A DNA stretch of 64,000 nucleotides from a virus. Each line of letters opens with the position of its first letter. Position 1 is the first letter of the stretch. The stretch lies in IMG/VR virus record IMGVR_UViG_3300035698_035359, positions 26,260 through 90,259 of that record. The stretch is one strand, 5' to 3'. This document shows positions 4,954-17,495 of the stretch, one piece after another. Made by a program: the position numbers and the translations under genes. Below the pieces are notes generated by a model. It saw nothing but the letters and a program-made list of their open reading frames with translations, was not told the origin of the DNA and did no database searches.

Positions 4954-6930
4954 TTACAGTACATCCAAAAATGCTCGTTCCAAAATTTCATTTGCGGTAT
5001 CAGGTTCTGTAATGTTATAATCTCCAAATAATTCTTGGACATCTTCATCATTTTCATTAATATCTATACCCACAAAAATGAACCTAGCCCCGTCGGTTTG
5101 TAGTTTGTTGGTTAATTCATTAATATCCTCGGGATAAACATTTGCATCCGTCAAAATTACTACCGCTTGGTCGGTACATTCTGAATCTTCCTTCAATTCA
5201 GCTACCACATGATTGACCGCATTTGCCAATCGGGTGTCATTAGTACCCGCCATTATTCTTTTTGATTCGTATTCATAGGTGAATTTTTTATCGGTATAAT
5301 CTTCCGAATTAATCAACCTAACGGTACGAGCTCCAAAGGAATAAATTGTAAAATCTGCAGGCGCACCCTCATTAATTGCTTTACTAAAGGCGTCGGCAAT
5401 TTTAATTGTGGCTTCAAGTGCTATATCTTTCCTGGTTAAAAGGCTAAACCTATTTTCTTCATGATTAAATTTTTTGCGATCCATAGAACCTGAGGCATCA
5501 ATTATGAAGGCAACTTTGGTTTTGGTTTCTTGTTTATAAGGGTCTAAAAATAACTGGTCTTCCGAGGTATACAAATCATGAAACCTACTTTCATTTAAAT
5601 AAGCACCTTCATCCGATTCAATTTTTTGGTCTCGTTTCATTATTAATACTTCTTTAATAATTTCCTCTAATGCGGGAGTGGCTTCTATTTTGACCACATC
5701 TTTTTTGGTTTCGATTAATGATTCAGAATCTAGAGCTTTAAATCCAAGGATGTCTTTAGGTTCTCCCTGACCACATAGCTTGTTGGCTTCGTATGCTATG
5801 TTATTTTTTAAAGTATTAATTGAATTATCAATTTCCCTCCTTTCTCTTGTTTTATCGAATTGATTATCATTAGCCTTTTGGTAATTTGCATGAGCCTTAT
5901 AGTATTTTTCCTTACATTCTTCTTCCAATTTACTATACTTTTTTTCCTTTGTGATTTCACCTTTTCTTTGGGCATTATATCTTTTGGTTTGATAGGTTCT
6001 CCATCTGCGCCTTGCTGTTTTCAGTTCCTTTCTTTCCGAATTAATATCGTTTACATCTGTATTTAATTTTTCTTTGATTTCTTCTTGCTTTTCCAATTCT
6101 TCAATATTTTCCTTGAGTTCAGAAAGGTTTGGTTCTTCTGCATTTTCCTCATTATCTGGAGTATTGTCTCCTTCTTTATCTCCTTCATTATTATTAGGCG
6201 CTTGATTGCTTGATTCAGACTCCTTTTTTTCTTCTTCCTGATTCTTGTCCGTTGCAGATTCTTTTTGGTTGTTTTGCTTATTTCCTTTATTATCTTCCTT
6301 CGATTCATTACTATTACCTGAATCTGAAGATGTTCCTTGTCCCTGCTGAGGTTCTGGTGGATTTTTTAACATTTCACCAACTATTTTTTTGATTAATTCT
6401 TTGGCTATCGGAACTAATGTTTCGGTATTTTCGGCATTTATAGCCTTCGGTATATATTCGGAAAATGATTCTATCAATTTAATAGTTTTTGAATCATAAA
6501 CCCTTTCCAAAGGAATTTTATAAGATTTTAAAATTAATCCCTTTAAAATTTTCCGCGCTATTTTTTCCTTCTGTAAACTTCCTTTACTTCTTTTTATTAC
6601 TCCTTCCACCAATAACTCTTGAAACTCCATCGATTTCGGATACCGTTTGGAGGTTAAAGTATCAATTCTAATATCCTCCAGGGCATTTAAGGTTTCGAAT
6701 TCTATGGTAGATAATTCACTGGTAATATGCCGACTGAAATCGGTATATCTGATATGCCCCGTTTCATGTAACAAGGCACCTAATACTGAATAAATAGCCT
6801 CTTCTCGCATACAGGTTGGAAGAGTGATTATTTTTCCATCGGTTTGAGGTGTTGCATTGTCCTCGAATTTTACCGTACATCTAATAGTTTCCGCTAAATG
6901 TCTTGCAAGTATTTGAAATCTACTTTGCAT
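4954..6930 (-). CDS. CobT-like vWA domain protein with N-terminal HExxH motif (partner of MoxR-type ATPase)
   Basis: LLHETGH, NALEDIRID, acidic low-complexity linker, C-terminal MIDAS IIDASGSM...ILTD. Confidence 0.85.
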   Translation of the reverse strand: MQSRFQILARHLAETIRCTVKFEDNATPQTDGKIITLPTCMREEAIYSVLGALLHETGHIRYTDFSRHITSELSTIEFETLNALEDIRIDTLTSKRYPKSMEFQELLVEGVIKRSKGSLQKEKIARKILKGLILKSYKIPLERVYDSKTIKLIESFSEYIPKAINAENTETLVPIAKELIKKIVGEMLKNPPEPQQGQGTSSDSGNSNESKEDNKGNKQNNQKESATDKNQEEEKKESESSNQAPNNNEGDKEGDNTPDNEENAEEPNLSELKENIEELEKQEEIKEKLNTDVNDINSERKELKTARRRWRTYQTKRYNAQRKGEITKEKKYSKLEEECKEKYYKAHANYQKANDNQFDKTRERREIDNSINTLKNNIAYEANKLCGQGEPKDILGFKALDSESLIETKKDVVKIEATPALEEIIKEVLIMKRDQKIESDEGAYLNESRFHDLYTSEDQLFLDPYKQETKTKVAFIIDASGSMDRKKFNHEENRFSLLTRKDIALEATIKIADAFSKAINEGAPADFTIYSFGARTVRLINSEDYTDKKFTYEYESKRIMAGTNDTRLANAVNHVVAELKEDSECTDQAVVILTDANVYPEDINELTNKLQTDGARFIFVGIDINENDEDVQELFGDYNITEPDTANEILERAFLDVL

Positions 6931-6976: not shown

Positions 6977-8074
6977 TTATTCTGAATCTATTTCCTCAAA
7001 CGCTTTGGCGCCAAAGCAAATTTTGGCAATATCTTCCAGTGATTTCATTTCCCTCTCCGATGCCGTTGCAATTGCTGAATTGTAAAATCCATAAGAAAGC
7101 GCCGTTTTTACAGAATCTCCATTTTTTAGAAAATGGCTTATTCTCTGTATTGACCTTAAACTAATAACAGCCCGTAATCCTTGTTCCTTTATCACTCTTA
7201 AAACCTCGGAATAAAACCGTTTTAAGCTTTCAGTATTTTCTTCCGAATTGGTTTTGAAAAGATTTTCCATATCTTCGGTCTTAAATTGCTCCATAGGAAC
7301 TGTCATACATCTGTCAACTAAAGCCACATTAAATTTATTGGTACCTGCATACCTTCCCGAGACAGGATTACAAGATAAGAAAATACTACATTCAGGATGG
7401 ACATTAATTACTTTTCCAGACCCTGCATCCTTTAAGAATATTTTCCTATAACCTGGTTCCAATAACTCATGTAGGAAAAATTGCTTGCTTGGCGGTAGGC
7501 AATTAACCTCATCCAAAAGAATTATTGAGGGCACTTGCAGTAATTCAATCAAAGCACCCATCCGAAAGTATGTGGTTCCACTAATAATTTCCCTCTTGCC
7601 AATAAACTCTTTTAAAATTGCTGAATCATCACATGCAATCCTTAAAAATGGCTTTTTAGTTTCTGCGGCTATTTGGCGTGGCATGTATGATTTTCCCGTA
7701 CCAGCCTCACCTACTAATAACATGGCGCCATAATGTTTCCAATTAGTGCTGATACCGTTTTCAATCTTGGACATTATTTCAGCATCCACTTCCCGTTTTT
7801 TATAATTTGGGTCGGCTTGTGGAATATAATCTGCTGGATTAATGTTTGCTGGAATTACACTAACAAAATCGGTAGGATTTTTATCTACCAATCTGTTGAT
7901 TGCACCCGCTGAAATATCTCCTTTGGTTGATTGCTTGCTTGATTCTTCTTCTACTTTACGGAGCCAATAATAAGCTTGGGCTTTACTGATACCCAATTCT
8001 TTGGCTAATACTTCGGGATTATTTCCTATCTTTTCAATTGCTTCCTCTACCTTTGCTATTTTTAATCTTTTCAC
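6977..8074 (-). CDS. MoxR/CbbQ/CobS-type AAA+ ATPase with N-terminal HTH
   Basis: Walker A GEAGTGKS, Walker B ILLDEVN, NP..YAGT...ALVDR; N-terminal LAKELGISKAQAYYW. Confidence 0.9.
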   Translation of the reverse strand: MKRLKIAKVEEAIEKIGNNPEVLAKELGISKAQAYYWLRKVEEESSKQSTKGDISAGAINRLVDKNPTDFVSVIPANINPADYIPQADPNYKKREVDAEIMSKIENGISTNWKHYGAMLLVGEAGTGKSYMPRQIAAETKKPFLRIACDDSAILKEFIGKREIISGTTYFRMGALIELLQVPSIILLDEVNCLPPSKQFFLHELLEPGYRKIFLKDAGSGKVINVHPECSIFLSCNPVSGRYAGTNKFNVALVDRCMTVPMEQFKTEDMENLFKTNSEENTESLKRFYSEVLRVIKEQGLRAVISLRSIQRISHFLKNGDSVKTALSYGFYNSAIATASEREMKSLEDIAKICFGAKAFEEIDSE

Positions 8075-11449: not shown

Positions 11450-12037
11450 ATGAAGCAATATATTAGAGCAGATATTGAAATTTTTCACGATTGTGGAATT
11501 TTAATTCCAAATAGAACAATATATTTCGGGAGTGAAATTGAGGATGAAGGTGAAGAGGGTGGGGTTGATTTTGCTTCTTCAAAGAAAGTTATTAAAAACT
11601 TACTTTACTTAGATAATAAGGGAGATGAACCAATAACGCTTTATTGGAATAGTCCTGGAGGATGTGTTTTTCGTGGTATGGCAATTTATGATGTTATAAA
11701 AGGATTACGTTCTAAAGTAATTATGATTGGGTTAGGTATGGTGCGTTCTATGGGAACAATTATAATGCAAGCTTGTGATGAAAGAATATTAAGCCCAAAT
11801 ACAGATTTTATGATACATGACGGAACTAGCGTAAATTATGGCGAAACAAAAACAGTTATTGCTTGGGGCAAATGGGATGAAAAAGAATTAGATAGAATGT
11901 ATAGTATATATTTAGAAAAAATACAAGTAAAACATCCTAAATATACCAAAAAACAAATATCTGATTTATGTACTCACGATTGTATAATGAGTGGTGCAAA
12001 GGCTTTAGAATTAGGTCTAGTTGATAAAGTATTATAA
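11450..12037 (+). CDS. clpP: ClpP-family serine protease
   Basis: RTIYF, NSPGG, GMAIYD, G..RSMG (Ser), FMIHD (His), ALELGLVDKV. Confidence 0.9.
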   Translation: MKQYIRADIEIFHDCGILIPNRTIYFGSEIEDEGEEGGVDFASSKKVIKNLLYLDNKGDEPITLYWNSPGGCVFRGMAIYDVIKGLRSKVIMIGLGMVRSMGTIIMQACDERILSPNTDFMIHDGTSVNYGETKTVIAWGKWDEKELDRMYSIYLEKIQVKHPKYTKKQISDLCTHDCIMSGAKALELGLVDKVL

Positions 12038-12045
12038 AATAAAGC

Positions 12046-12075
12046 TTTACAAAGTCACTATGAATGTAGTATAAT
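12046..12075 (+). promoter_or_regulatory. promoter for tRNA cluster
   Basis: TTTACA-18 nt-TATAAT just upstream of the cluster. Confidence 0.55.
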
Positions 12076-12096
12076 AAAGGAGTAAGATAAAATTAA

Positions 12097-12120
12097 ATAA
12101 TTCCATTGAGAATTATTCCA
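12097..12120 (+). ncRNA. acceptor-stem-like microhelix 1 ending U-CCA
   Basis: ATAATTC-cattga-GAATTAT-T-CCA abutting tRNA-Met. Confidence 0.6.
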
Positions 12121-12197
12121 TGCAGAGACAAGCCTTGGTAGGCTAGAAAGGTTCATACCCTTTATTATTGTGGATTCGATTTCCACCTCTGCTACCA
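12121..12197 (+). tRNA. tRNA-Met(CAT), initiator-like
   Basis: AAAGG-TT CAT AC-CCTTT anticodon arm, GTGGA-TTCGATT-TCCAC T arm, unpaired 1:72, encoded CCA. Confidence 0.8.
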
Positions 12198-12262
12198 AAT
12201 TATCCTGCTACTTGAGGTTAATAATATCCAGTGAGATGTAACCAAGCAGAGTAGCACTTATA

Positions 12263-12301
12263 AGGGGTAGGTGTTAAGGTTCTTAACTATCTACCTCTCC
12301 A
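12263..12301 (+). ncRNA. minihelix-like hairpin 2 ending U-CCA
   Basis: AGGGGTAGGTGTTAAG-gtt-CTTAACtATCTACCTCT-CCA abutting tRNA-Pro. Confidence 0.6.
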
Positions 12302-12379
12302 CTGGGTATAGGGGAGTTTGGCCACCCCGTCTCGTTTGGGGCGAGAAGAACGCAGGTTCGAATCCTGCTACCTAGACCA
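12302..12379 (+). tRNA. tRNA-Pro(TGG)
   Basis: TCTCG-TT TGG GG-CGAGA, GGTTCGAATCC, CCA. Confidence 0.92.
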
Positions 12380-12453
12380 AGGGATATAGTATAATGGTAG
12401 TGCATCGGTTTTACATACCGAGAGCGAAAGTTCGATTCTTTCTATTCCAACCA
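12380..12453 (+). tRNA. tRNA-Val(TAC)
   Basis: TCGGT-TT TAC AT-ACCGA, GTTCGATTC, CCA; 1:72 mismatch. Confidence 0.88.
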
Positions 12454-12529
12454 TCTGGAGTAGCTCACTGGTAGAGCGTTGGGTTGAAGACCCGAGACAG
12501 AGGTGGTTCGATTCCACTCTCTAGAACCA
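12454..12529 (+). tRNA. tRNA-Phe(GAA)
   Basis: TTGGG-TT GAA GA-CCCGA, GGTTCGATTCC, CCA. Confidence 0.9.
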
Positions 12530-12603
12530 AGTCGTGTGGTGTAATGGTAACACAAGCGACTGTTAATCGCTTGATACAGGTTCGAATCCTGTCGTGACTG
12601 CCA
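12530..12603 (+). tRNA. tRNA-Asn(GTT)
   Basis: AGCGA-CT GTT AA-TCGCT, GGTTCGAATCC, GCCA. Confidence 0.93.
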
Positions 12604-12709
12604 CAGTTGATAGTTTAAAAGGTAGTTTACTATACTAGTCGATGTAACTACTGCTAAAATCCTTTCTATCTGAAAGGGGATTTAGGTGGAAGTCCTAATC
12701 AACTGACCA
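12604..12709 (+). ncRNA. aberrant tRNA-like RNA with ~32-nt hairpin inserted in the D loop
   Basis: perfect acceptor CAGTTGA/TCAACTG-A-CCA, T arm TTAGG-TGGAAGT-CCTAA, arm CCTTT-CTATCTG-AAAGG, D-loop hairpin GGTAGTT...AACTACT. Confidence 0.7.
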
Positions 12710-12717
12710 AATATTAT

Positions 12718-12739
12718 AGAAAGTTTTTACTTTCTTCCA
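12718..12739 (+). ncRNA. microhelix 3 ending U-CCA
   Basis: AGAAAGT-tttt-ACTTTCT-T-CCA, exact 7 bp, abutting tRNA-Gly. Confidence 0.65.
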
Positions 12740-12816
12740 GCGTCTATGGTGTTAACGGACAAGCATGATAGATTTCCAATCTATTGGTTTCGGTTCGAAT
12801 CCGAATAGACGCTCCA
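12740..12816 (+). tRNA. tRNA-Gly(TCC)
   Basis: ATAGA-TT TCC AA-TCTAT, GCGTCTA/TAGACGC, TCCA. Confidence 0.93.
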
Positions 12817-12900
12817 GGGAAGGTAGTTTAGTCCTATTAAGCCATGGTAACTTGTAGGATAAGATGATTCAAAAGTGGGTGTAAATTCTCACCCTTCTCT
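12817..12900 (+). ncRNA. aberrant tRNA-like RNA lacking a normal anticodon arm and encoded CCA
   Basis: GGGAAGG/CCTTCTC acceptor, TAGTTTA, hairpin GTCCTA...TAGGAT, T arm GTGGG/CTCAC. Confidence 0.55.
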
Positions 12901-12908
12901 AAAATTAT

Positions 12909-12931
12909 AGAAGATATAATATCTTCTTCCA
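12909..12931 (+). ncRNA. microhelix 4 ending U-CCA
   Basis: AGAAGAT-ataat-ATCTTCT-T-CCA abutting tRNA-Cys. Confidence 0.65.
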
Positions 12932-13006
12932 GGCTATGTAGCCAAATGGCTAAGGCAATGAGTTGCAACCTCATTAATGGAGGTTCGATTCCTTCCGTAG
13001 TCTCCA
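12932..13006 (+). tRNA. tRNA-Cys(GCA)
   Basis: ATGAG-TT GCA AC-CTCAT, GGTTCGATTCC, TCCA. Confidence 0.92.
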
Positions 13007-13081
13007 GGGACCATAGTGTCAATGGTAGCATTTCTCCCCTGCAAGGAGAAGGTTAGGGTTCAAATCCCTATGGCTCCACCA
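13007..13081 (+). tRNA. tRNA-Ala(TGC)
   Basis: TCTCC-CC TGC AA-GGAGA, G3:U70 pair, ACCA. Confidence 0.88.
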
Positions 13082-13156
13082 GCCCGTTTAGTATAACGAT
13101 AGTATAATTCCCTTGTAAGGAATAGGTGGTGGTTTAATTCCGACCAATGGGCTCCA
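13082..13156 (+). tRNA. tRNA-Thr(TGT)
   Basis: ATTCC-CT TGT AA-GGAAT, GCCCGTT/AATGGGC, TCCA. Confidence 0.85.
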
Positions 13157-13161
13157 AAAAT

Positions 13162-13338
13162 ATGACATTAAAATATACAATTTATAAAATAACTAATTTA
13201 ATAAATAATAGGTTTTATATTGGGATGCATAGAACAAAAAATATTAATGATTATTATTTAGGTTCTGGTAAATTAATCATACAAGCGATAGAAAAATATG
13301 GTGAAGAAAATATTGTAAATTTATTGATAACAAGTTAG
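13162..13338 (+). pseudogene. truncated GIY-YIG (Seg-like) homing endonuclease
   Basis: YTIYKITNLINNRFYIGMH...YLGSG...AIEKYGEEN, then similarity breaks and the frame stops after 58 aa. Confidence 0.8.
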
Positions 13339-13366
13339 AAACTATTAAAAAATAAAAACAGTTTAA

Positions 13367-13395
13367 ATATACAAGAGATTAATTTGTATATTCCA
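13367..13395 (+). ncRNA. microhelix 5 ending U-CCA
   Basis: ATATACAAG-agattaa-TTTGTATAT-T-CCA abutting tRNA-Asp. Confidence 0.6.
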
Positions 13396-13470
13396 GGTAG
13401 ATTAGTGTAATGAAAAGCACGTGGCTCTGTCGAAGCCAAAGCGAGAGATTGATACTCTCATTTACCGCCA
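13396..13470 (+). tRNA. tRNA-Asp(GTC)
   Basis: TGGCT-CT GTC GA-AGCCA, GCCA end; atypical T and D loops. Confidence 0.8.
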
Positions 13471-13544
13471 GAGGATTTGGTGTAATGGAAACATTTGTAG
13501 CTCCAAACTACAAGACATGGGTTCGATTCCTATAATCTTTGCCA
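13471..13544 (+). tRNA. tRNA-Trp(CCA)
   Basis: TGTAG-CT CCA AA-CTACA, GGTTCGATTCC, GCCA. Confidence 0.88.
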
Positions 13545-13560
13545 ATAAAAAGGAGAAACA

Positions 13561-13755
13561 ATGTTTAATAATAAAAAAAGATGGGACAATGAACAACCAG
13601 AAATTGAGTTTCCGTCACTTGATATACTTAAAGATTGTTTATGTTTTATGTTTTGTATTCAAGTAAAGAAAAATAAACAGTTTCTTTCGTGTTATAAGCA
13701 AGCTTTAGAATCACAGTTAAAAATGGTGGGTCAAGAGTTAAAGACTTTAGATTAA
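13561..13755 (+). CDS. hypothetical small protein
   Basis: AAGGAG SD; CLCFMFC...C. Confidence 0.6.
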   Translation: MFNNKKRWDNEQPEIEFPSLDILKDCLCFMFCIQVKKNKQFLSCYKQALESQLKMVGQELKTLD

Positions 13756-13775
13756 TATTAATTTAAGGGGAGCTT

Positions 13776-13889
13776 ATGTCCAGAGATGGTAAAGGAAGTT
13801 TTTACAAGAAATTAAAAGTTGATAAGGAGACACGAAATATTATTCGTGAATTTAGGTCATGGAAGAAGAAAATTATTAATAAGAAATAA
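13776..13889 (+). CDS. 37-aa basic peptide
   Basis: GGGGAG SD; MSRDGKGSFYKKLKVDKETRNIIREFRSWKKKIINKK. Confidence 0.5.
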   Translation: MSRDGKGSFYKKLKVDKETRNIIREFRSWKKKIINKK

Positions 13890-13918
13890 TTTTAAAAAAT
13901 AAGTATAAAGTTTTATAT

Positions 13919-13956
13919 AACCCGTTATAGATTATGTTTCTATAGCGGGTTTTTTA
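13919..13956 (+). terminator. intrinsic terminator
   Basis: AACCCGTTATAGA/TCTATAGCGGGTT stem followed by T run. Confidence 0.8.
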
Positions 13957-13974
13957 TTTATATAAGGAGAATAT

Positions 13975-15570
13975 GTGTTAGAGAAATTATCAAATGAAGA
14001 ATTAGATTTTATGGATAGTTGGTTTTATCCGATATGTCAAGCAGAGACTTTGTTTTCGGATTTTGACAATCTCGCAATGATGGAAGATGGTATATTAGGT
14101 AATATAAGGCTTGGTCAATTCCCCTTACTTTCTTATGAATATTTATTAGATGATGAAAATCCTAGTCTTTCTAAAAAAGAGAATTTTCAATTAAGAAAAA
14201 GATTAGGAGATATTTACTGTTTTGGTGGAAGATTGTTTGGAAAAACTTTAATATTAGAAAAAATAGATATGATGATTTCGATGATATTGCAAGGAGCAGA
14301 AAAGGTTGGATTTACTTCCGCTGATGCTTCGCACATTGAAGGTGTTTTAGAAGATGTTTTATATGGGGTAGAAAATCACCCATTTATGAAATTATATGAA
14401 CCTAGTACCAAAAGAAACCCTTACACTGTAAAGTTAAAAACTGGTTATCATATGTTAGGCGTTAATATGAACGTATATGGAAAGAATCCTGGAAAGAATT
14501 TTTTTCAGAAGCATTTTACTAGGCTTTATATAGAAGAAGCTAGTATGGAAACAGATGAAGTTTATAAGAAAAGACGTGATAGTGTTTCGGAATTAGGATG
14601 TGTATTCCGTGTTGCTGGAATGACAGATTTCATAAAACATAGCCCCTGTGGTAGTGTAATGGATGATATAACAAAGATACCTTGGCTTTGTAATCTTCCA
14701 CAATATGTAAACCCAAATTGGAATGAGAAATCTAAAGTAGATGCTATTAGAGATTTTGGCGGGGAACAAACAATTGAATTTAGAATATTTATCAAAGGAG
14801 AAATAGTTGAAGATGCTATAACTGTTTTTGATATGGGAAGAATTCGCCCCCAGTATAATCAAAATAGAAGAGTTAAATTTTTTGAAGTAAACAAAGATAC
14901 TTTTGATTTATTTGAGCAAATAATAATAGTAGAGAGACCCTCTAACGCAGCAACAGTATTTATATCTGCGGATATTGGGGAATCTGCTCCAACGGAAATA
15001 GGAATATTTTTTGAAATAAATAAAAAATATAGATACGTTTATAATATTACTTTATATAATTTAACAGATAAAGAACAATTTAAAATTTTTAAATTTTTAG
15101 GTGAAATATTAGGTAGTAATTATATTGGGCTTGATTGCTCAGATGGTACTGGAAGAGCAATTTTCCGTTCTTTAGAAGAAGTATTTCCGAAAGAAAATTT
15201 AAACTGGTGTTCATTTAATGAAAAAGTAGCAGTAGACTATGTTAAAGATAAAGATGAGGAAGGTAAAGAAGTACTTGTGCTAAAAAATGGTAAGCCAGTT
15301 GAAAAAATGGAATATGTTGTTGCTTGGTCAGTTAAGAGATTACAACATTTATTATATGGGGAACTTTTTGATTTACCCATAGATAACAAGTTTGATACTC
15401 AATTTAATAAAGTAAAATGTTTTAAAACTGGTAACAGAGTTGTATATAAATGTCTCGGAGAAGACCATCTATTCCAAATGTTCCAAGTTTTTGCAATTAT
15501 GCAATGGGATAGAGAATGGTGCAATAATAAACCTATAAAAAAATTAACTTTTTGTAAGTCAGGGAAATAA
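13975..15570 (+). CDS. terL: terminase large subunit
   Basis: GGRLFGKT Walker A, LYIEE Walker B, RNase H-like nuclease acidic residues (ISADIG, GLDCSDG, EDH); position before portal. Confidence 0.8.
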   Translation: MLEKLSNEELDFMDSWFYPICQAETLFSDFDNLAMMEDGILGNIRLGQFPLLSYEYLLDDENPSLSKKENFQLRKRLGDIYCFGGRLFGKTLILEKIDMMISMILQGAEKVGFTSADASHIEGVLEDVLYGVENHPFMKLYEPSTKRNPYTVKLKTGYHMLGVNMNVYGKNPGKNFFQKHFTRLYIEEASMETDEVYKKRRDSVSELGCVFRVAGMTDFIKHSPCGSVMDDITKIPWLCNLPQYVNPNWNEKSKVDAIRDFGGEQTIEFRIFIKGEIVEDAITVFDMGRIRPQYNQNRRVKFFEVNKDTFDLFEQIIIVERPSNAATVFISADIGESAPTEIGIFFEINKKYRYVYNITLYNLTDKEQFKIFKFLGEILGSNYIGLDCSDGTGRAIFRSLEEVFPKENLNWCSFNEKVAVDYVKDKDEEGKEVLVLKNGKPVEKMEYVVAWSVKRLQHLLYGELFDLPIDNKFDTQFNKVKCFKTGNRVVYKCLGEDHLFQMFQVFAIMQWDREWCNNKPIKKLTFCKSGK

Positions 15571-15581
15571 AGGAGAAGAAT

Positions 15582-17495
15582 ATGGCAATTAAGAAAGCCT
15601 CGCCAGCACTTCGGTGGTTAGTAGATATGATGGATTTTATGAGTAGAGATTCTATAAAAGTACCATCAGATTATAGACCTCAAGTGTTAGAAGTTAAAGC
15701 ATTATTAAAGCAAGACCCATCTGGGTTGGCTAGTACATTACTTGACTTAGCTATTTCTTCTGCAGCAGATGTGGATTATAGAATTGAAACTAGCAACGAT
15801 TCATTAGATGATTTATTGAATTCGTGGTTAGGTGATATAAATTTTGCTCTAAGAGGCAAAATTCCAACAGGAATAGAAAATTTATCCAAAGAATATTATA
15901 GAGAAAGATGGAAGGGTTCTTCCTTTTTACTATTGAGAACTTTTTGGGAAGATGTAGGTGGATATAATTTACCTACAAAGCTATATTTTCTTGATGGAGA
16001 AGATATTGTGGTATCTGATAATAAGGAATCTGTTATATTAGGTGATGAAAAATATAAATTAAGAATTAGTAAAAATAAAAGTATTGCGCTTCCTTCTAGA
16101 AAGAATGAAGTAATTTTTATTCAAAAACCCTATGATTCTTGGGGAACGTCTTATTCTACTCCTTTTCTTATTCAGCGTGGAATATTTGAAAATGTTAAAT
16201 TTTTAGAATTATTAGGTAAAAAGGGACAAGATGTTGTTGGTAAAGCTCTTGAATATTTATTAACTATGAAAAAAGGAACAGAAGGATTGTTTTTAGAAGG
16301 GCATATTGGTTATAGTGCCGATGAGTTAGCAATAGCTAAAGAAGATTTCCAAAAAATTATATCGGATAGAAAAACTCAAGCGGGTACACCTAGTTATGTG
16401 TCTAATTTTGATACAGAAATAGAACATTTGATACCTGAATATAAGAAAATTTTAGATGGAGTTTTATATGCTCCTATTGAAAAAAGAATTTTGGCTGGAA
16501 TAGGTCTTGTAGATATTGTGCAAGGTGCTGCTTCAACTAGAAGAGAATCTACTTTAAACCCTAAACCTTTTATAGGTGAAATCAATAGTGGGGTTAGTGA
16601 TTTTAAATCTTTACTTAAAGACATAATGTTAACTATGGTTGAACGAAATAAAAATAAACATCCGAAATATTTTAAAAATACTCAAATAGAAAAAATTAGA
16701 ACTACTTCTTTAAAAATCTTTCTTAGCGATGATGATAAAGTTATGTTTAGAAGTATGTATGATAGAGGTGCTATATCTAAACAAACTTTTGTAGAAATGA
16801 CAGGAGACGTTGATTATACATTAGAAGTTGAAAGAAGAAAAGCTGAAAAGACACGTGGAGAAGAAAAAACTATGTTCCCACCTGTTACACAGAACTTAGA
16901 GCAGAATAGTAATGTTAAAGATTTTCCAGATACGAAAACAAAAGATGTAAATGACAATGAGGTTCCAGATGATAGAACTGGACCTGAAACTAAAAACTTT
17001 TCTGGTGTTTTAGAAGAAACTAAATGTCCACATTGTTCTGAAATATTTGATTATGAATCACAGAAAGAAATTACAGTAGGCTCAGTTGCATGCCCTAAAT
17101 GTCAGAAAGAAGTAACAAAAGCTTCTATATTGGAATTAGCTAAAAAGAAATATGAGGAAGCACCTTATACCTTAAAGAAATATCCTGCGCAACTAAAAAA
17201 CATACCTGCAAAGGCTAGAGAAATTTGGATTAAAACTTTTAATGAAGTTCTAAAGCAAACTAATAGCGAAACTACTGCAAGACAGTCTGCTTGGAGAAAT
17301 GTTAAATTAAAATATAAGAAGGTTGAGGATAAATGGACAAGAAAGACTAAGAGCGAAGTTGAGAAATCAGTTAAAGAATTGGATATTGAAAAATTGGTAG
17401 ACTTAGCAAAATTAGAAATTCTTGGCAAACAAAACAAGTTACTAGACCAAATTATAAAAGAAAATGAAGTTTCAGACTCAAGTGAGGTAGAATAA
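15582..17495 (+). CDS. portal protein with C-terminal zinc ribbon and ChaB-like domain
   Basis: follows terL; CPHC...CPKC; NIPAKAREIWIKTFNEV...ARQSAWRNVKLKYKK...W resembles ChaB. Confidence 0.7.
   Translation: MAIKKASPALRWLVDMMDFMSRDSIKVPSDYRPQVLEVKALLKQDPSGLASTLLDLAISSAADVDYRIETSNDSLDDLLNSWLGDINFALRGKIPTGIENLSKEYYRERWKGSSFLLLRTFWEDVGGYNLPTKLYFLDGEDIVVSDNKESVILGDEKYKLRISKNKSIALPSRKNEVIFIQKPYDSWGTSYSTPFLIQRGIFENVKFLELLGKKGQDVVGKALEYLLTMKKGTEGLFLEGHIGYSADELAIAKEDFQKIISDRKTQAGTPSYVSNFDTEIEHLIPEYKKILDGVLYAPIEKRILAGIGLVDIVQGAASTRRESTLNPKPFIGEINSGVSDFKSLLKDIMLTMVERNKNKHPKYFKNTQIEKIRTTSLKIFLSDDDKVMFRSMYDRGAISKQTFVEMTGDVDYTLEVERRKAEKTRGEEKTMFPPVTQNLEQNSNVKDFPDTKTKDVNDNEVPDDRTGPETKNFSGVLEETKCPHCSEIFDYESQKEITVGSVACPKCQKEVTKASILELAKKKYEEAPYTLKKYPAQLKNIPAKAREIWIKTFNEVLKQTNSETTARQSAWRNVKLKYKKVEDKWTRKTKSEVEKSVKELDIEKLVDLAKLEILGKQNKLLDQIIKENEVSDSSEVE

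What the first reader, a model, noticed from the sequence alone, without database searches (positions are those of the whole stretch)
12604..12709. tRNA-like RNA with a hairpin grafted into the D loop and an odd anticodon loop
Seen: perfect acceptor stem plus ACCA, a T arm and a 4-nt variable region, but the D loop carries a ~32-nt hairpin (12621-12652) and the anticodon loop reads CT-ATC-TG, which could pair further to a 5-nt loop. Established: A34 Asp anticodons are essentially absent from bacteria. Inference: a chargeable non-decoding tRNA mimic (decoy, or donor for non-ribosomal aminoacyl transfer), or a tRNA with a non-canonical intron.
Basis: partly seen in the sequence, partly recalled or inferred. 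Interest (0 to 1): 0.7.

Follow-up and report, generated by a model that had tools for sequence, protein, structure and literature searches.

The report
Non-decoding tRNA look-alike in phage array
Among the tRNA genes of an uncultivated sediment phage sits a 106-base gene that folds like a tRNA and ends in CCA but carries an extra hairpin and cannot plausibly read codons; it is one more of the unexplained tRNA-like RNAs long known from phages T4 and T5.

Summary
Window 12604-12709 starts directly after the CCA of tRNA-Asn. It has a 7-bp acceptor stem plus ACCA, a 5-bp/7-nt T arm, a 5-bp anticodon-like stem and a 32-nt hairpin (12621-12652) in the D loop.

ARAGORN and Rfam tRNA, YrlA and tmRNA models do not call it. 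Deleting the hairpin in silico lets ARAGORN call a tRNA in 54 of 324 variants.

It is unlikely to decode. It has U37, A34, a non-canonical T loop and A73, and a normal tRNA-Asp(GTC) lies in the same array.

Only one relative carries it. Metagenome contig L083 begins inside it and keeps the T stem, acceptor strand and ACCA exactly, with all 3 changes in the T loop. A sediment contig covers its first 17 nt, then diverges where the hairpin starts.

A sister element at 12817-12899 has the same design and shows covariation in three phages.

The phage also encodes RtcB and a Thg1-like protein.

Best reading: a tRNA-derived, RNase P-processed, non-decoding tRNA mimic of unknown target. The intron reading is not supported.

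The scan noted such phage tRNA look-alikes before on other DNA.

The parts
12046..12075 (+). Sigma-70-like promoter (TTTACA, 18 nt, TATAAT) upstream of the whole RNA array
   Evidence: 11 of 12 consensus matches, the best site in 11900-14100. This is a consensus match only.
12096..12120 (+). Leader minihelix: an 8-bp stem followed directly by CCA, abutting the first tRNA(CAT) at 12121
   Evidence: Read. It shows that even the leader ends in 'hairpin + CCA' at the junction with the next unit.
12604..12709 (+). The finding (U1): a 106-nt tRNA-like RNA gene
   Evidence: It abuts the tRNA-Asn CCA at 12603. ARAGORN and Rfam do not call it.
12604..12610 (+). Acceptor 5' strand (pairs with 12699-12705). 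C1-G72 with A73 is the tRNA-Pro type of these phages.
   Evidence: pair probabilities 0.98-1.0. C1-G72-A73 occurs in 14 of 14 tRNA-Pro and in 2 of 225 other CCA-ending tRNAs of the related arrays; a sediment contig covers 12451-12620 at about 90% identity.
12613..12616 (+). Weak D stem 5' strand (pairs with 12657-12660)
   Evidence: it is part of the MFE structure, but its pair probability is only about 0.33.
12621..12652 (+). Hairpin in the D loop (7+2 bp, 13-nt loop). The loop holds the 6-nt palindrome ACTAGT at 12634-12639.
   Evidence: pair probabilities about 0.8-0.9; palindrome. The relative's contig stops matching at 12620.
12661..12677 (+). Anticodon-like arm: 5-bp stem, loop CTATCTG (U33, A34 T35 C36, U37). 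A sixth pair can close the loop to 5 nt.
   Evidence: stem probabilities 0.87-0.95, sixth pair 0.95.
12682..12698 (+). T arm: 5-bp stem with the non-canonical loop TGGAAGT (no U55 C56)
   Evidence: L083 keeps the stem 5 of 5 and changes 3 of 7 loop bases (12689, 12692, 12693).
12699..12709 (+). Acceptor 3' strand, discriminator A and encoded CCA
   Evidence: identical in L083 (11 of 11).
12710..12739 (+). A/T-rich spacer plus a 7-bp minihelix ending in TCCA, abutting tRNA-Gly (12740)
   Evidence: z-score -5.1. It is kept in L083 with one extra pair and a different loop.
12817..12899 (+). Sister element (U2): acceptor-like stem, the same TAGTTTA entry, a hairpin at the D position with the loop palindrome CCATGG, no anticodon arm, a T-like arm and no CCA
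   Evidence: Homologues at L110:3888-3982 and L062:2161-2251. 8 of 18 pairs change on both sides.
12900..12931 (+). Second spacer plus an 8-bp minihelix ending in TCCA, abutting tRNA-Cys (12932)
   Evidence: L110 carries a counterpart.
13919..13951 (+). Intrinsic-terminator-like hairpin downstream of the array
   Evidence: 13 pairs followed by a T run.

Best explanation
12604-12709 is a gene for a tRNA-derived RNA that does not decode.

Inferred from the anatomy:
- It is transcribed with the 11 tRNAs of the phage's array from the promoter-like site at 12046-12075.
- Host RNase P cuts it out. The cut that makes its 5' end also makes the CCA end of tRNA-Asn. Units of the array abut directly, and each ends in an encoded NCCA.

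Shown by comparison: selection keeps the part that tRNA-end enzymes see, namely the acceptor stem, the T stem and ACCA.

Shown by sequence:
- The elbow is rebuilt. A hairpin replaces the D loop, and the T loop lacks U55 C56.
- The anticodon loop is not usable for decoding.

Most likely role (inferred): a tRNA mimic that offers a tRNA-Pro-type acceptor end to some tRNA-binding factor. That factor could be a host tRNA-targeting nuclease or an end-processing or repair enzyme. The RNA may act as a dimer formed through the self-complementary ACUAGU in its hairpin loop. At the least, it serves as a processing unit of the array.
For: Structure:
- All 30 pairs of the cloverleaf-plus-hairpin are standard pairs.
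- The unit abuts tRNA-Asn and ends in ACCA.
- Removing the hairpin in silico yields a tRNA call in 54 of 324 variants, against 0 for the intact unit.

Not a decoder:
- No Rfam tRNA match even at E<=10 and no ARAGORN call.
- U37 and a T loop reading TGGAAGT.
- A normal tRNA-Asp(GTC) with G73 lies at 13396-13470.

Selection on the ends:
- L083's marker protein is 78% identical to the window's. In L083 the last 30 nt are 27 of 30 identical. All 3 changes fall in the 7-nt T loop and 0 in the 23 stem, acceptor and ACCA bases. My hand calculation gives a hypergeometric p of about 0.009.
- The tRNA-Gly next door in L083 did not align at all.
- Sediment contig record 7 covers 12451-12620 with 16 differences. 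None of the 13 listed differences lies in 12604-12620. Its remaining 22 nt do not fit the hairpin.

Pro-type end: C1-G72-A73 occurs in 14 of 14 tRNA-Pro and 2 of 225 other tRNAs. CAG...CTG ends occur in 8 tRNAs, all of them Pro.

The design recurs:
- The sister element has homologues in L110 and L062, with 96% of cells paired against 53-61% in the slid controls.
- 8 of 18 of its pairs change on both sides, including 4 of 6 pairs of the D-position hairpin.
- All four hairpin loops hold a 6-nt palindrome: ACTAGT, CCATGG, CCATGG and CTATAG. Chance is about 0.06-0.13 per loop.

Context: the same phage encodes RtcB (E 1.7e-110) and a Thg1-like protein (E 1.2e-21), which points to pressure on tRNA integrity.
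Against: - No full-length homologue was found. The single-sequence model R1 over 91 sources (783 kb) found only the window copy, the truncated L083 end (23 bits) and ordinary tRNAs at 37 bits or less. Three pattern scans of IMG/VR found nothing.
- There is therefore no covariation for this element itself, and its middle is not conserved in the one relative seen.
- There are no expression data.
- Perfect stems could simply mean a young insertion. A duplicated TAGTTTA, and an 11-nt identity with the sister element (18 of 2000 shuffles score as high), suggest recent rearrangement.
- The D stem is weak, and the thermodynamic model prefers a shifted T hairpin.
- The covariation counts for the sister element rest on 3 sequences aligned to the model. 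That leans towards the structure.
- The palindrome argument rests on two independent lineages at most.
- Charging, dimerisation and any target are untested.
Confidence: 0.5

Rival explanations
1. It is a decaying tRNA gene, or pure punctuation. A former tRNA, possibly tRNA-Pro-like, acquired a local duplication or insertion in its D loop and lost decoding. It survives only because the array needs an RNase P-cleavable acceptor/T minihelix at this position. The RNA has no function of its own.
For: - Only the two ends are conserved in relatives, and the middle diverges.
- L062 and L110, whose marker proteins are 60% and 51% identical, have no counterpart.
- TAGTTTA is duplicated, and 11 nt are shared with the neighbouring element.
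- The arrays of this phage group are full of reduced 'stem + NCCA' units and bare minihelices, including the leader at 12096-12120.
Against: - All 30 pairs are intact, including the anticodon-like stem and a 9-bp hairpin, which punctuation would not need.
- A bare minihelix evidently suffices elsewhere in the same array.
- The same hairpin-at-D design is kept by compensatory change in the sister family.
- The hairpin loops carry palindromes.
Confidence: 0.28
2. It is a real decoding tRNA whose D-loop hairpin is an intervening sequence. The hairpin would be removed by an unknown endonuclease and the halves joined by the phage's RtcB ligase, giving a tRNA with anticodon AUC (or IUC).
For: - In-silico excision gives an ARAGORN tRNA call with anticodon ATC in 47 of 324 variants.
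- The phage encodes RtcB.
- The relative's sequence diverges exactly where the hairpin begins.
Against: - No bulge-helix-bulge motif flanks the hairpin (fold).
- No splicing-endonuclease family was found in the record.
- tmRNA genes in related arrays point to bacterial hosts.
- The spliced product would still have U37, a T loop without U55 C56, a D loop of about 8 nt without a partner elbow, and A73 instead of the G73 of the array's tRNA-Asp(GTC).
- The sister element keeps its hairpin as a covarying, permanent part.
- No joint skipping the hairpin was reported in the DNA contigs. That bears only on DNA.
Confidence: 0.05
3. The conserved features act at the DNA level, not as RNA. One possibility is an internal promoter (TTGATA at 12607, 18 nt, TATACT at 12631-12636). 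Another is a palindromic protein-binding site in the hairpin.
For: - One search lists this 10-of-12 promoter-like site inside the element.
- The -35-like part lies in the 17 nt that the sediment contig covers.
- The loop holds ACTAGT and TCGA palindromes.
Against: - Promoter-like sites are not rare here: 15 found against 8.5 +/- 3.1 in shuffles.
- The -10-like part lies in the stretch that is not conserved.
- The full tRNA geometry, the exact abutment to tRNA-Asn and the encoded ACCA are not explained by this reading.
- The loop palindromes are off the hairpin's own symmetry axis.
Confidence: 0.05

Closest known systems
Phage T5 'tRNA-like stable RNAs with unknown functions', RNA1, RNA2 and RNA3 (record AY543070, annotation seen)
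   Same: - They are genes inside a phage tRNA cluster, next to tRNAs and homing-endonuclease genes.
- They close with an acceptor-like stem and have a T arm. RNA3 ends in ACCA.
- They have no usable anticodon arm, and their function is unknown.
   Different: - There is no sequence or structure homology. Model R1 hits only ordinary T5 tRNAs (Lys 33.7 bits, Asp 19.8 bits), not RNA1, RNA2 or RNA3.
- In the folds, RNA1 and RNA2 keep a D arm and T-loop sequences like those of ordinary tRNAs (RNA2 UUCGAAU, RNA1 UUCAACU). They are expanded in the anticodon and variable region.
- Here the reverse holds: the anticodon arm has canonical geometry, and the D loop and T loop are rebuilt.
Phage T4 species 1 RNA (rnaC), and species 2 RNA (rnaD), in the T4 tRNA cluster (record NC_000866)
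   Same: - They are small stable RNAs encoded in the tRNA cluster beside segB, a GIY-YIG homing endonuclease. The window has a SegB-like remnant at 13147-13338.
- rnaC folds with a canonical T arm next to a closing stem.
- Their function is unknown.
   Different: - Model R1 finds no match.
- rnaC is 139 nt with large internal arms and no encoded CCA.
- The unit here is a near-complete cloverleaf with an encoded ACCA.
Canonical bacterial or phage tRNA (Rfam RF00005)
   Same: It has a 7-bp acceptor stem, a discriminator plus CCA, a 5-bp/7-nt T arm, a 5-bp/7-nt anticodon-like arm with U33, a 4-nt variable region, and a position in a head-to-tail tRNA array.
   Different: - The D loop is 40 nt and holds a 32-nt hairpin, with no G18 G19 context.
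- The T loop reads TGGAAGT.
- Position 37 is U, and A34 is present.
- There is no Rfam match at E<=10 and no ARAGORN call.
YrlA-type bacterial Y RNAs, which are tRNA mimics (Rfam RF02553; Chen et al. 2014, PMC4201824, of which I saw only the search listing and the start of the abstract)
   Same: It is a non-decoding RNA that mimics part of a tRNA. From recall, YrlA genes often lie near rtcB. This phage has rtcB.
   Different: - There is no RF02553 match on the element.
- The record has no Ro60/TROVE gene.
- From recall, the ends of YrlA lie in the Ro-binding stem, not in an acceptor stem with CCA.

Membership tests
Canonical decoding tRNA (RF00005) | Score at or above the Rfam gathering threshold (29 bits), or a call by a tRNA finder | tested here: not met
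   No RF00005 match on 12604-12709 at gathering or at E<=10. ARAGORN makes no call, also with its intron option on the isolated unit.
Canonical decoding tRNA (RF00005) | 7-bp acceptor stem, discriminator and CCA, and a 5-bp T stem with a 7-nt loop stacked on the acceptor | tested here: met
   The T stem is supported by L083.
Canonical decoding tRNA (RF00005) | D loop of about 7-11 nt with G18 G19 pairing to U55 C56 of the T loop (the elbow) | tested here: not met
   40 nt lie between the D-stem strands, including a 32-nt hairpin. T-loop positions 55 and 56 are G G (A at 56 in L083).
Canonical decoding tRNA (RF00005) | 7-nt anticodon loop with U33 and a purine at position 37 | tested here: not met
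   The loop is CTATCTG. U33 is present, but position 37 is U. A sixth pair (probability 0.95) can close the loop to 5 nt.
tRNA-Asp | GUC anticodon and discriminator G73 (identity elements recalled from E. coli work) | tested here: not met
   The element has AUC and A73. The array's own tRNA-Asp at 13396-13470 has GTC and G73. Every tRNA-Asp listed in the related arrays is GTC.
Phage tRNA-cluster tRNA-like stable RNAs (T4 rnaC and rnaD; T5 RNA1-3) | Encoded within a phage tRNA gene cluster, on the same strand, between tRNAs | tested here: met
   it lies between tRNA-Asn and tRNA-Gly. Compare the T4 and T5 annotations.
Phage tRNA-cluster tRNA-like stable RNAs (T4 rnaC and rnaD; T5 RNA1-3) | tRNA-like closing stem and T arm without a decodable anticodon arm | tested here: met
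   compared with the folds of T4 rnaC and T5 RNA1-3.
Phage tRNA-cluster tRNA-like stable RNAs (T4 rnaC and rnaD; T5 RNA1-3) | Accumulates as a stable small RNA in infected cells | not testable with these tools
   No RNA run was available, and the host is unknown.
Phage tRNA-cluster tRNA-like stable RNAs (T4 rnaC and rnaD; T5 RNA1-3) | Sequence or structure homology to the T4 or T5 RNAs | tested here: not met
   Model R1 over the T4 and T5 tRNA regions hits only ordinary T5 tRNAs. It is the same kind of RNA, not the same family.
YrlA / bacterial Y RNA (RF02553) | Match to the covariance model, and a Ro60 (TROVE) partner gene | tested here: not met
   There is no RF02553 match on the element. 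The only hit, at 16.7 bits, lies on another tRNA. PF05731 is absent from the record.
tmRNA (RF00023) | Match to the model or an ARAGORN tmRNA call | tested here: not met
   No tmRNA in the window. Relatives do carry tmRNA elsewhere in their arrays.
Archaeal-type (bulge-helix-bulge) tRNA intron | Two 3-nt bulges separated by a 4-bp helix at the exon-intron borders, and a splicing endonuclease | tested here: not met
   The hairpin base shows no such bulges (fold). PF01974 is absent from the record. RtcB is present.

The most novel reading that the evidence does not exclude
The hairpin is a true intervening sequence in the D loop of a bacterial-virus tRNA. An unrecognised nuclease would cut it out and the phage's own RtcB would rejoin the halves. 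The product would be an A34 (or I34) tRNA with a tRNA-Pro-type acceptor end, which could insert a non-cognate amino acid at GAU/GAC codons. This would be the first protein-spliced tRNA intron in a bacterial system.
Probability: 0.04. Interest if true: 0.9.

Novelty: new variant of a known kind. Interest (0 to 1): 0.42.

Why it matters
tRNA-like RNAs in phage tRNA clusters have been annotated in the T4 and T5 genome records, and T5's are labelled as having unknown functions.

This example adds three features:
- It is a near-complete cloverleaf in which only the elbow and the anticodon loop are disabled.
- Its acceptor end is of the tRNA-Pro type.
- It has a sister family with covariation, and it shares a genome with RtcB and a Thg1-like enzyme.

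If such RNAs prove to be decoys for tRNA-targeting defence nucleases, they would extend the recent idea that phage tRNAs serve counter-defence. That idea comes from PMC10264068 and PMC11464382, of which I saw only the search listing and the start of the abstract.

As it stands, this is one lineage-restricted case without expression data.

Tried and rejected
Close relatives:
- Megablast of the array against 50,697 phage records found nothing.
- Distant blastn found only the GIY-YIG remnant.
- The ClpP-like protease next door gave no IMG/VR relatives.

Pattern scans of IMG/VR:
- Exact and degenerate patterns for the 3' end, for the 5' plus 3' ends and for minihelix 1 gave 0 hits.
- A pattern for the sister element gave one hit, inside the coding region of an unrelated phage. 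I judged it a chance match.

Relatives found through the marker ORF:
- The 531-aa ORF at 13975-15570 has no PHROG family. I used it only as a marker for related phages.
- It gave 58 IMG/VR loci, 2 genome loci (MAGs labelled Promethearchaeota and Omnitrophota, probably binning artefacts) and 80 of 201 metagenome loci.
- Among the 91 sources I searched with model R1, only L083 holds part of the element.

Sequencing runs:
- No RNA holder is listed for the L083 stretch.
- The three DNA runs are from one marine-sediment sample and hold 9-16% of the words.
- Laid on the window, they left 12652-12739 and most of the downstream array uncovered. That says nothing either way.
- The 22 unmatched letters of record 7 were not among the loose ends shown.

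Motifs and similarity:
- The motif TTATAGAAR, shared by the two spacers, is not enriched in the window: 6 found against 6.9 expected. I dropped the idea that it is a phage promoter.
- The element shares only an 11-nt identity with its sister element.
- With the hairpin removed, it has no clear nearest tRNA. Global identities were 0.66-0.8 across many isotypes. Model R1's best tRNA hits lean towards tRNA-Lys, which I regard as weak.

Genes and RNA families:
- EndA, TROVE, FemAB and CCA-adding-enzyme families are absent from the record, which is 83% complete.
- Rfam at gathering over 13 related loci gave only tRNA, tRNA-Sec and tmRNA among the 150 rows shown (4 lower-scoring rows were not shown). 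None of the odd array RNAs is listed as a known family.

Literature:
- The search 'species 1 RNA' + 'bacteriophage T4' + 'tRNA' found 0 papers.
- Searches turned up no listed paper describing a phage tRNA-like RNA with a D-loop hairpin.
- I read no paper beyond listings and abstract starts. Supplements were closed.
Full report
Setting.
- The window is part of a 90,259-base IMG/VR virus record (G000:C1:26260-90259). IMG/VR classes it as a provirus and CheckV estimates it 83% complete. G+C is about 31%.
- Most of its large proteins match no PHROG family.
- Positions 12121-13544 on the + strand form an RNA array. ARAGORN finds 8 tRNAs. Rfam finds 10, adding Thr(TGT) at 13082-13152 and Asp(GTC) at 13396-13467.
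- An eleventh tRNA, with anticodon CAT, lies at 12121-12197. Both tools miss it.
- Units abut head to tail, and each ends in an encoded NCCA.
- A strong sigma-70-like site lies upstream at 12046-12075 and a terminator-like hairpin lies at 13919-13951.
- Even the leader folds into an 8-bp helix followed by CCA, right before the first tRNA (12096-12120).

The observation.
- 12604-12709 begins at the base after the CCA of tRNA-Asn.
- The minimum-free-energy fold is a cloverleaf with an extra hairpin inside the D loop (-27.5 kcal/mol, z = -2.69, 2 of 200 shuffles as good).
- Pair probabilities are 0.98-1.0 for the acceptor stem, about 0.8-0.9 for the hairpin 12621-12652, 0.87-0.95 for the anticodon-like stem and about 0.33 for the D stem.
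- The energy model prefers a shifted T hairpin (0.75) over the tRNA-like T stem (0.08). The relative L083 decides for the tRNA-like stem (see below).
- ARAGORN calls nothing on the intact unit. When I deleted the hairpin region in silico it called a tRNA in 54 of 324 variants: 47 with anticodon ATC, and 7 as a long class-II reading in which the hairpin is taken as the anticodon arm.
- The description 'a tRNA with a hairpin grafted into the D loop' is therefore accurate. That alternative class-II-like reading is not excluded.

It is not a member of a catalogued family.
- Rfam gives no tRNA match on it even at E<=10, no YrlA match and no tmRNA match.
- As a decoder it fails on several counts. 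Position 37 is U. The T loop reads TGGAAGT, without U55 C56. The D loop cannot form the usual elbow. The discriminator is A, whereas the array's own tRNA-Asp(GTC) has G73.
- Every tRNA-Asp that ARAGORN lists in related arrays has GTC.

Relatives.
- The 531-aa ORF just downstream (13975-15570) has hundreds of homologues at 61% identity or less in the protein collection. I used it as a marker.
- It gave 58 IMG/VR loci, 2 genome loci and 80 metagenome loci.
- Many relatives carry tRNA arrays in the same place, and three carry tmRNA genes, which points to bacterial hosts.
- A covariance model of the element (R1) was searched over 91 sources (783 kb). It found the window copy (136.6 bits), ordinary tRNAs with the hairpin skipped (37 bits or less) and one true relative, the first 30 nt of L083.
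- L083 is the closest relative, at 78% identity over 357 residues of the marker. Its contig begins inside the element.
- The last 30 nt are 27 of 30 identical. The T stem, the acceptor strand and ACCA are unchanged, and all three changes (12689, 12692, 12693) lie in the T loop.
- The neighbouring tRNA-Gly of L083, by contrast, did not align with the window's.
- Logan contigs of the sediment sample that holds L083 add one piece. Record 7 covers 12451-12620 with 16 differences. The 13 listed ones all lie upstream of 12604, so at most 3 unlisted ones could fall in the element's first 17 nt.
- Its remaining 22 nt do not fit the window from 12621 on.
- So both ends are held, while the middle differs at least where the hairpin begins. 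The stretch 12643-12679 was not seen in any relative.

The same design next door.
- 12817-12899 has an acceptor-like stem, the same TAGTTTA entry and a hairpin at the D position. It has a linker instead of an anticodon arm, a T-like arm and no CCA.
- It has homologues at L110:3888-3982 and L062:2161-2251.
- On the three sequences, 96% of cells pair, against 53-61% with slid partners. 8 of 18 pairs change on both sides, 4 of them among the 6 pairs of the D-position hairpin.
- That alignment was fitted to the model and has only three rows, so the figures are indicative.
- The two window elements share an exact 11-mer, and 18 of 2000 shuffles score as high.
- All four D-position hairpin loops contain a 6-nt palindrome: ACTAGT in the finding, CCATGG in the window's sister element and in L062, and CTATAG in L110. 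The L110 form differs from CCATGG by two symmetric changes.
- The window-wide density of such palindromes is 1.5% per position, which gives about 0.06-0.13 per loop.
- This suggests loop-loop self-pairing, or a dimeric binding partner. It rests on two independent lineages at most.
- Both window elements are followed by an A/T-rich spacer and a 7-8-bp helix ending in TCCA that abuts the next tRNA. The first of these helices is kept in L083 with a changed loop.

The acceptor end.
- I compared 239 distinct CCA-ending tRNAs of the window and the related loci.
- C1-G72-A73 occurs in 14 of 14 tRNA-Pro and in 2 of 225 others.
- Ends reading CAG...CTG occur in 8 tRNAs, all of them Pro.
- The element has exactly this end.
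- That A73 and G72 matter to ProRS, together with G35 and G36, is recalled from E. coli work. The element lacks G35 and G36.

Genome context.
- Outside the window, the record encodes RtcB (PF01139, E 1.7e-110), a Thg1-like protein (PF04446, E 1.2e-21), an RNase T-like exonuclease, an integrase and a DNA ligase.
- It has no match to the splicing-endonuclease, TROVE/Ro60, FemAB or CCA-adding-enzyme families.
- The RNA-repair enzymes suggest that tRNA damage matters in this phage's life. They do not link to the element directly.

Mechanism.
- Shown: the fold, the abutment to tRNA-Asn, the encoded ACCA, the non-canonical loops and the conservation of both ends in a relative.
- Inferred: co-transcription with the array, release by RNase P, and stability.
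- Proposed: a non-decoding tRNA mimic that presents a Pro-type acceptor end and may dimerise through its loop palindrome. Its target could be a tRNA-targeting defence nuclease or an end-processing or repair enzyme.
- I give this reading about 0.5.
- The main rival, at about 0.28, is a tRNA relic kept only as a processing unit. It fits the conserved-ends, variable-middle pattern and the abundance of bare 'stem + NCCA' units in these arrays. It does not explain the intact anticodon-like stem and hairpin, or the covarying hairpin of the sister family.
- The intron reading (about 0.05) has only RtcB in its favour.
- A DNA-level reading (about 0.05) rests on a 10-of-12 promoter-like match that is not unusual here.

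Comparison with what is known.
- The T5 record annotates RNA1 and RNA2 as 'tRNA-like stable RNA with unknown functions' and RNA3 as 'putative tRNA-like RNA', among its tRNA genes.
- The T4 record annotates rnaC and rnaD beside tRNA-Arg and segB.
- Folds show an acceptor-like closing stem and a T-like arm in T5 RNA1-3. T4 rnaC has a canonical T arm next to a weaker closing stem.
- The element is the same kind of thing but not a homologue. Its anatomy is inverted relative to T5 RNA1 and RNA2: the anticodon arm is regular, and the elbow is rebuilt.
- The scan has repeatedly noted non-decoding tRNA look-alikes in phage arrays on other DNA.

Verdict.
- The element is real, ordinary in kind and unusual in detail.
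- I class it as a new variant of a known, functionally unexplained kind.
- It is lineage-restricted, and it has no expression data and no covariation of its own.
- Interest: 0.42.

Noticed in passing
window 12121-12197 (+): A tRNA with anticodon CAT that both ARAGORN and Rfam miss. It has a clean cloverleaf, a canonical T loop, ACCA, and a T-T mismatch at positions 1 and 72. The 85-nt tRNA-Met(CAT) calls in L016 and L029 start with the same TGC and end in NCCA; homology was not tested.
   Followed up: partly
window 12198-12301 (+): A unit of about 104 nt made of two hairpins (z = -3.45). The second is a long helix ending in TCCA that abuts tRNA-Pro. It matches no Rfam family.
   Followed up: no
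window 12817-12899; L110:3888-3982; L062:2161-2251: The sister tRNA-like element without an anticodon arm is a small conserved family. It shows compensatory changes (8 of 18 pairs) and a conserved loop palindrome and linker.
   Followed up: partly
window 13147-13338 (+): A 63-aa remnant of a SegB-like GIY-YIG homing endonuclease inside the array (PHROG 314, E 2e-19). T4 segB likewise sits in the T4 tRNA cluster.
   Followed up: partly
G000:C1 outside the window (L143:16884-18236, 12576-13262 and 15037-15651, all on the - strand): The phage encodes RtcB, a Thg1-like 3'-5' nucleotidyltransferase and an RNase T-like exonuclease. Together they would make an RNA or tRNA repair set.
   Followed up: partly
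L005:667-779 and 1186-1297; L062 about 2012-2083: Another recurrent non-tRNA array RNA. It has a 10-bp terminal stem plus NCCA and shared internal motifs. It matches no Rfam family.
   Followed up: no
L069:3756-3876; L137 about 1549-1675; upstream part of L003: A conserved structured RNA of about 120 nt. It sits next to the phage tmRNA genes in L069 and L137, and is closed by a stem plus NCCA. It has no Rfam match at gathering.
   Followed up: no
L024:1470-1561; L080:534-626; L085:6448-6541; L112:1946-2037; L137:890-981: tRNAs of 92-94 nt with anticodon TAT (Ile) recur in related arrays. L024's shows a long variable arm, which is unusual for tRNA-Ile; the other four were not folded.
   Followed up: no
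L083:65-138 and L110:3814-3887: These two tRNA-Gly genes are nearly identical (1 difference by eye). Yet the two phages' marker proteins are 78% and 51% identical to the window's. The arrays look mosaic.
   Followed up: no
window 4954-6930 and 6977-8074 (-): A VWA-domain protein lies next to an AAA_5 ATPase, a CobT/CobS- or MoxR-like pair. No TROVE domain was found, so it is not a Ro60 homologue.
   Followed up: partly
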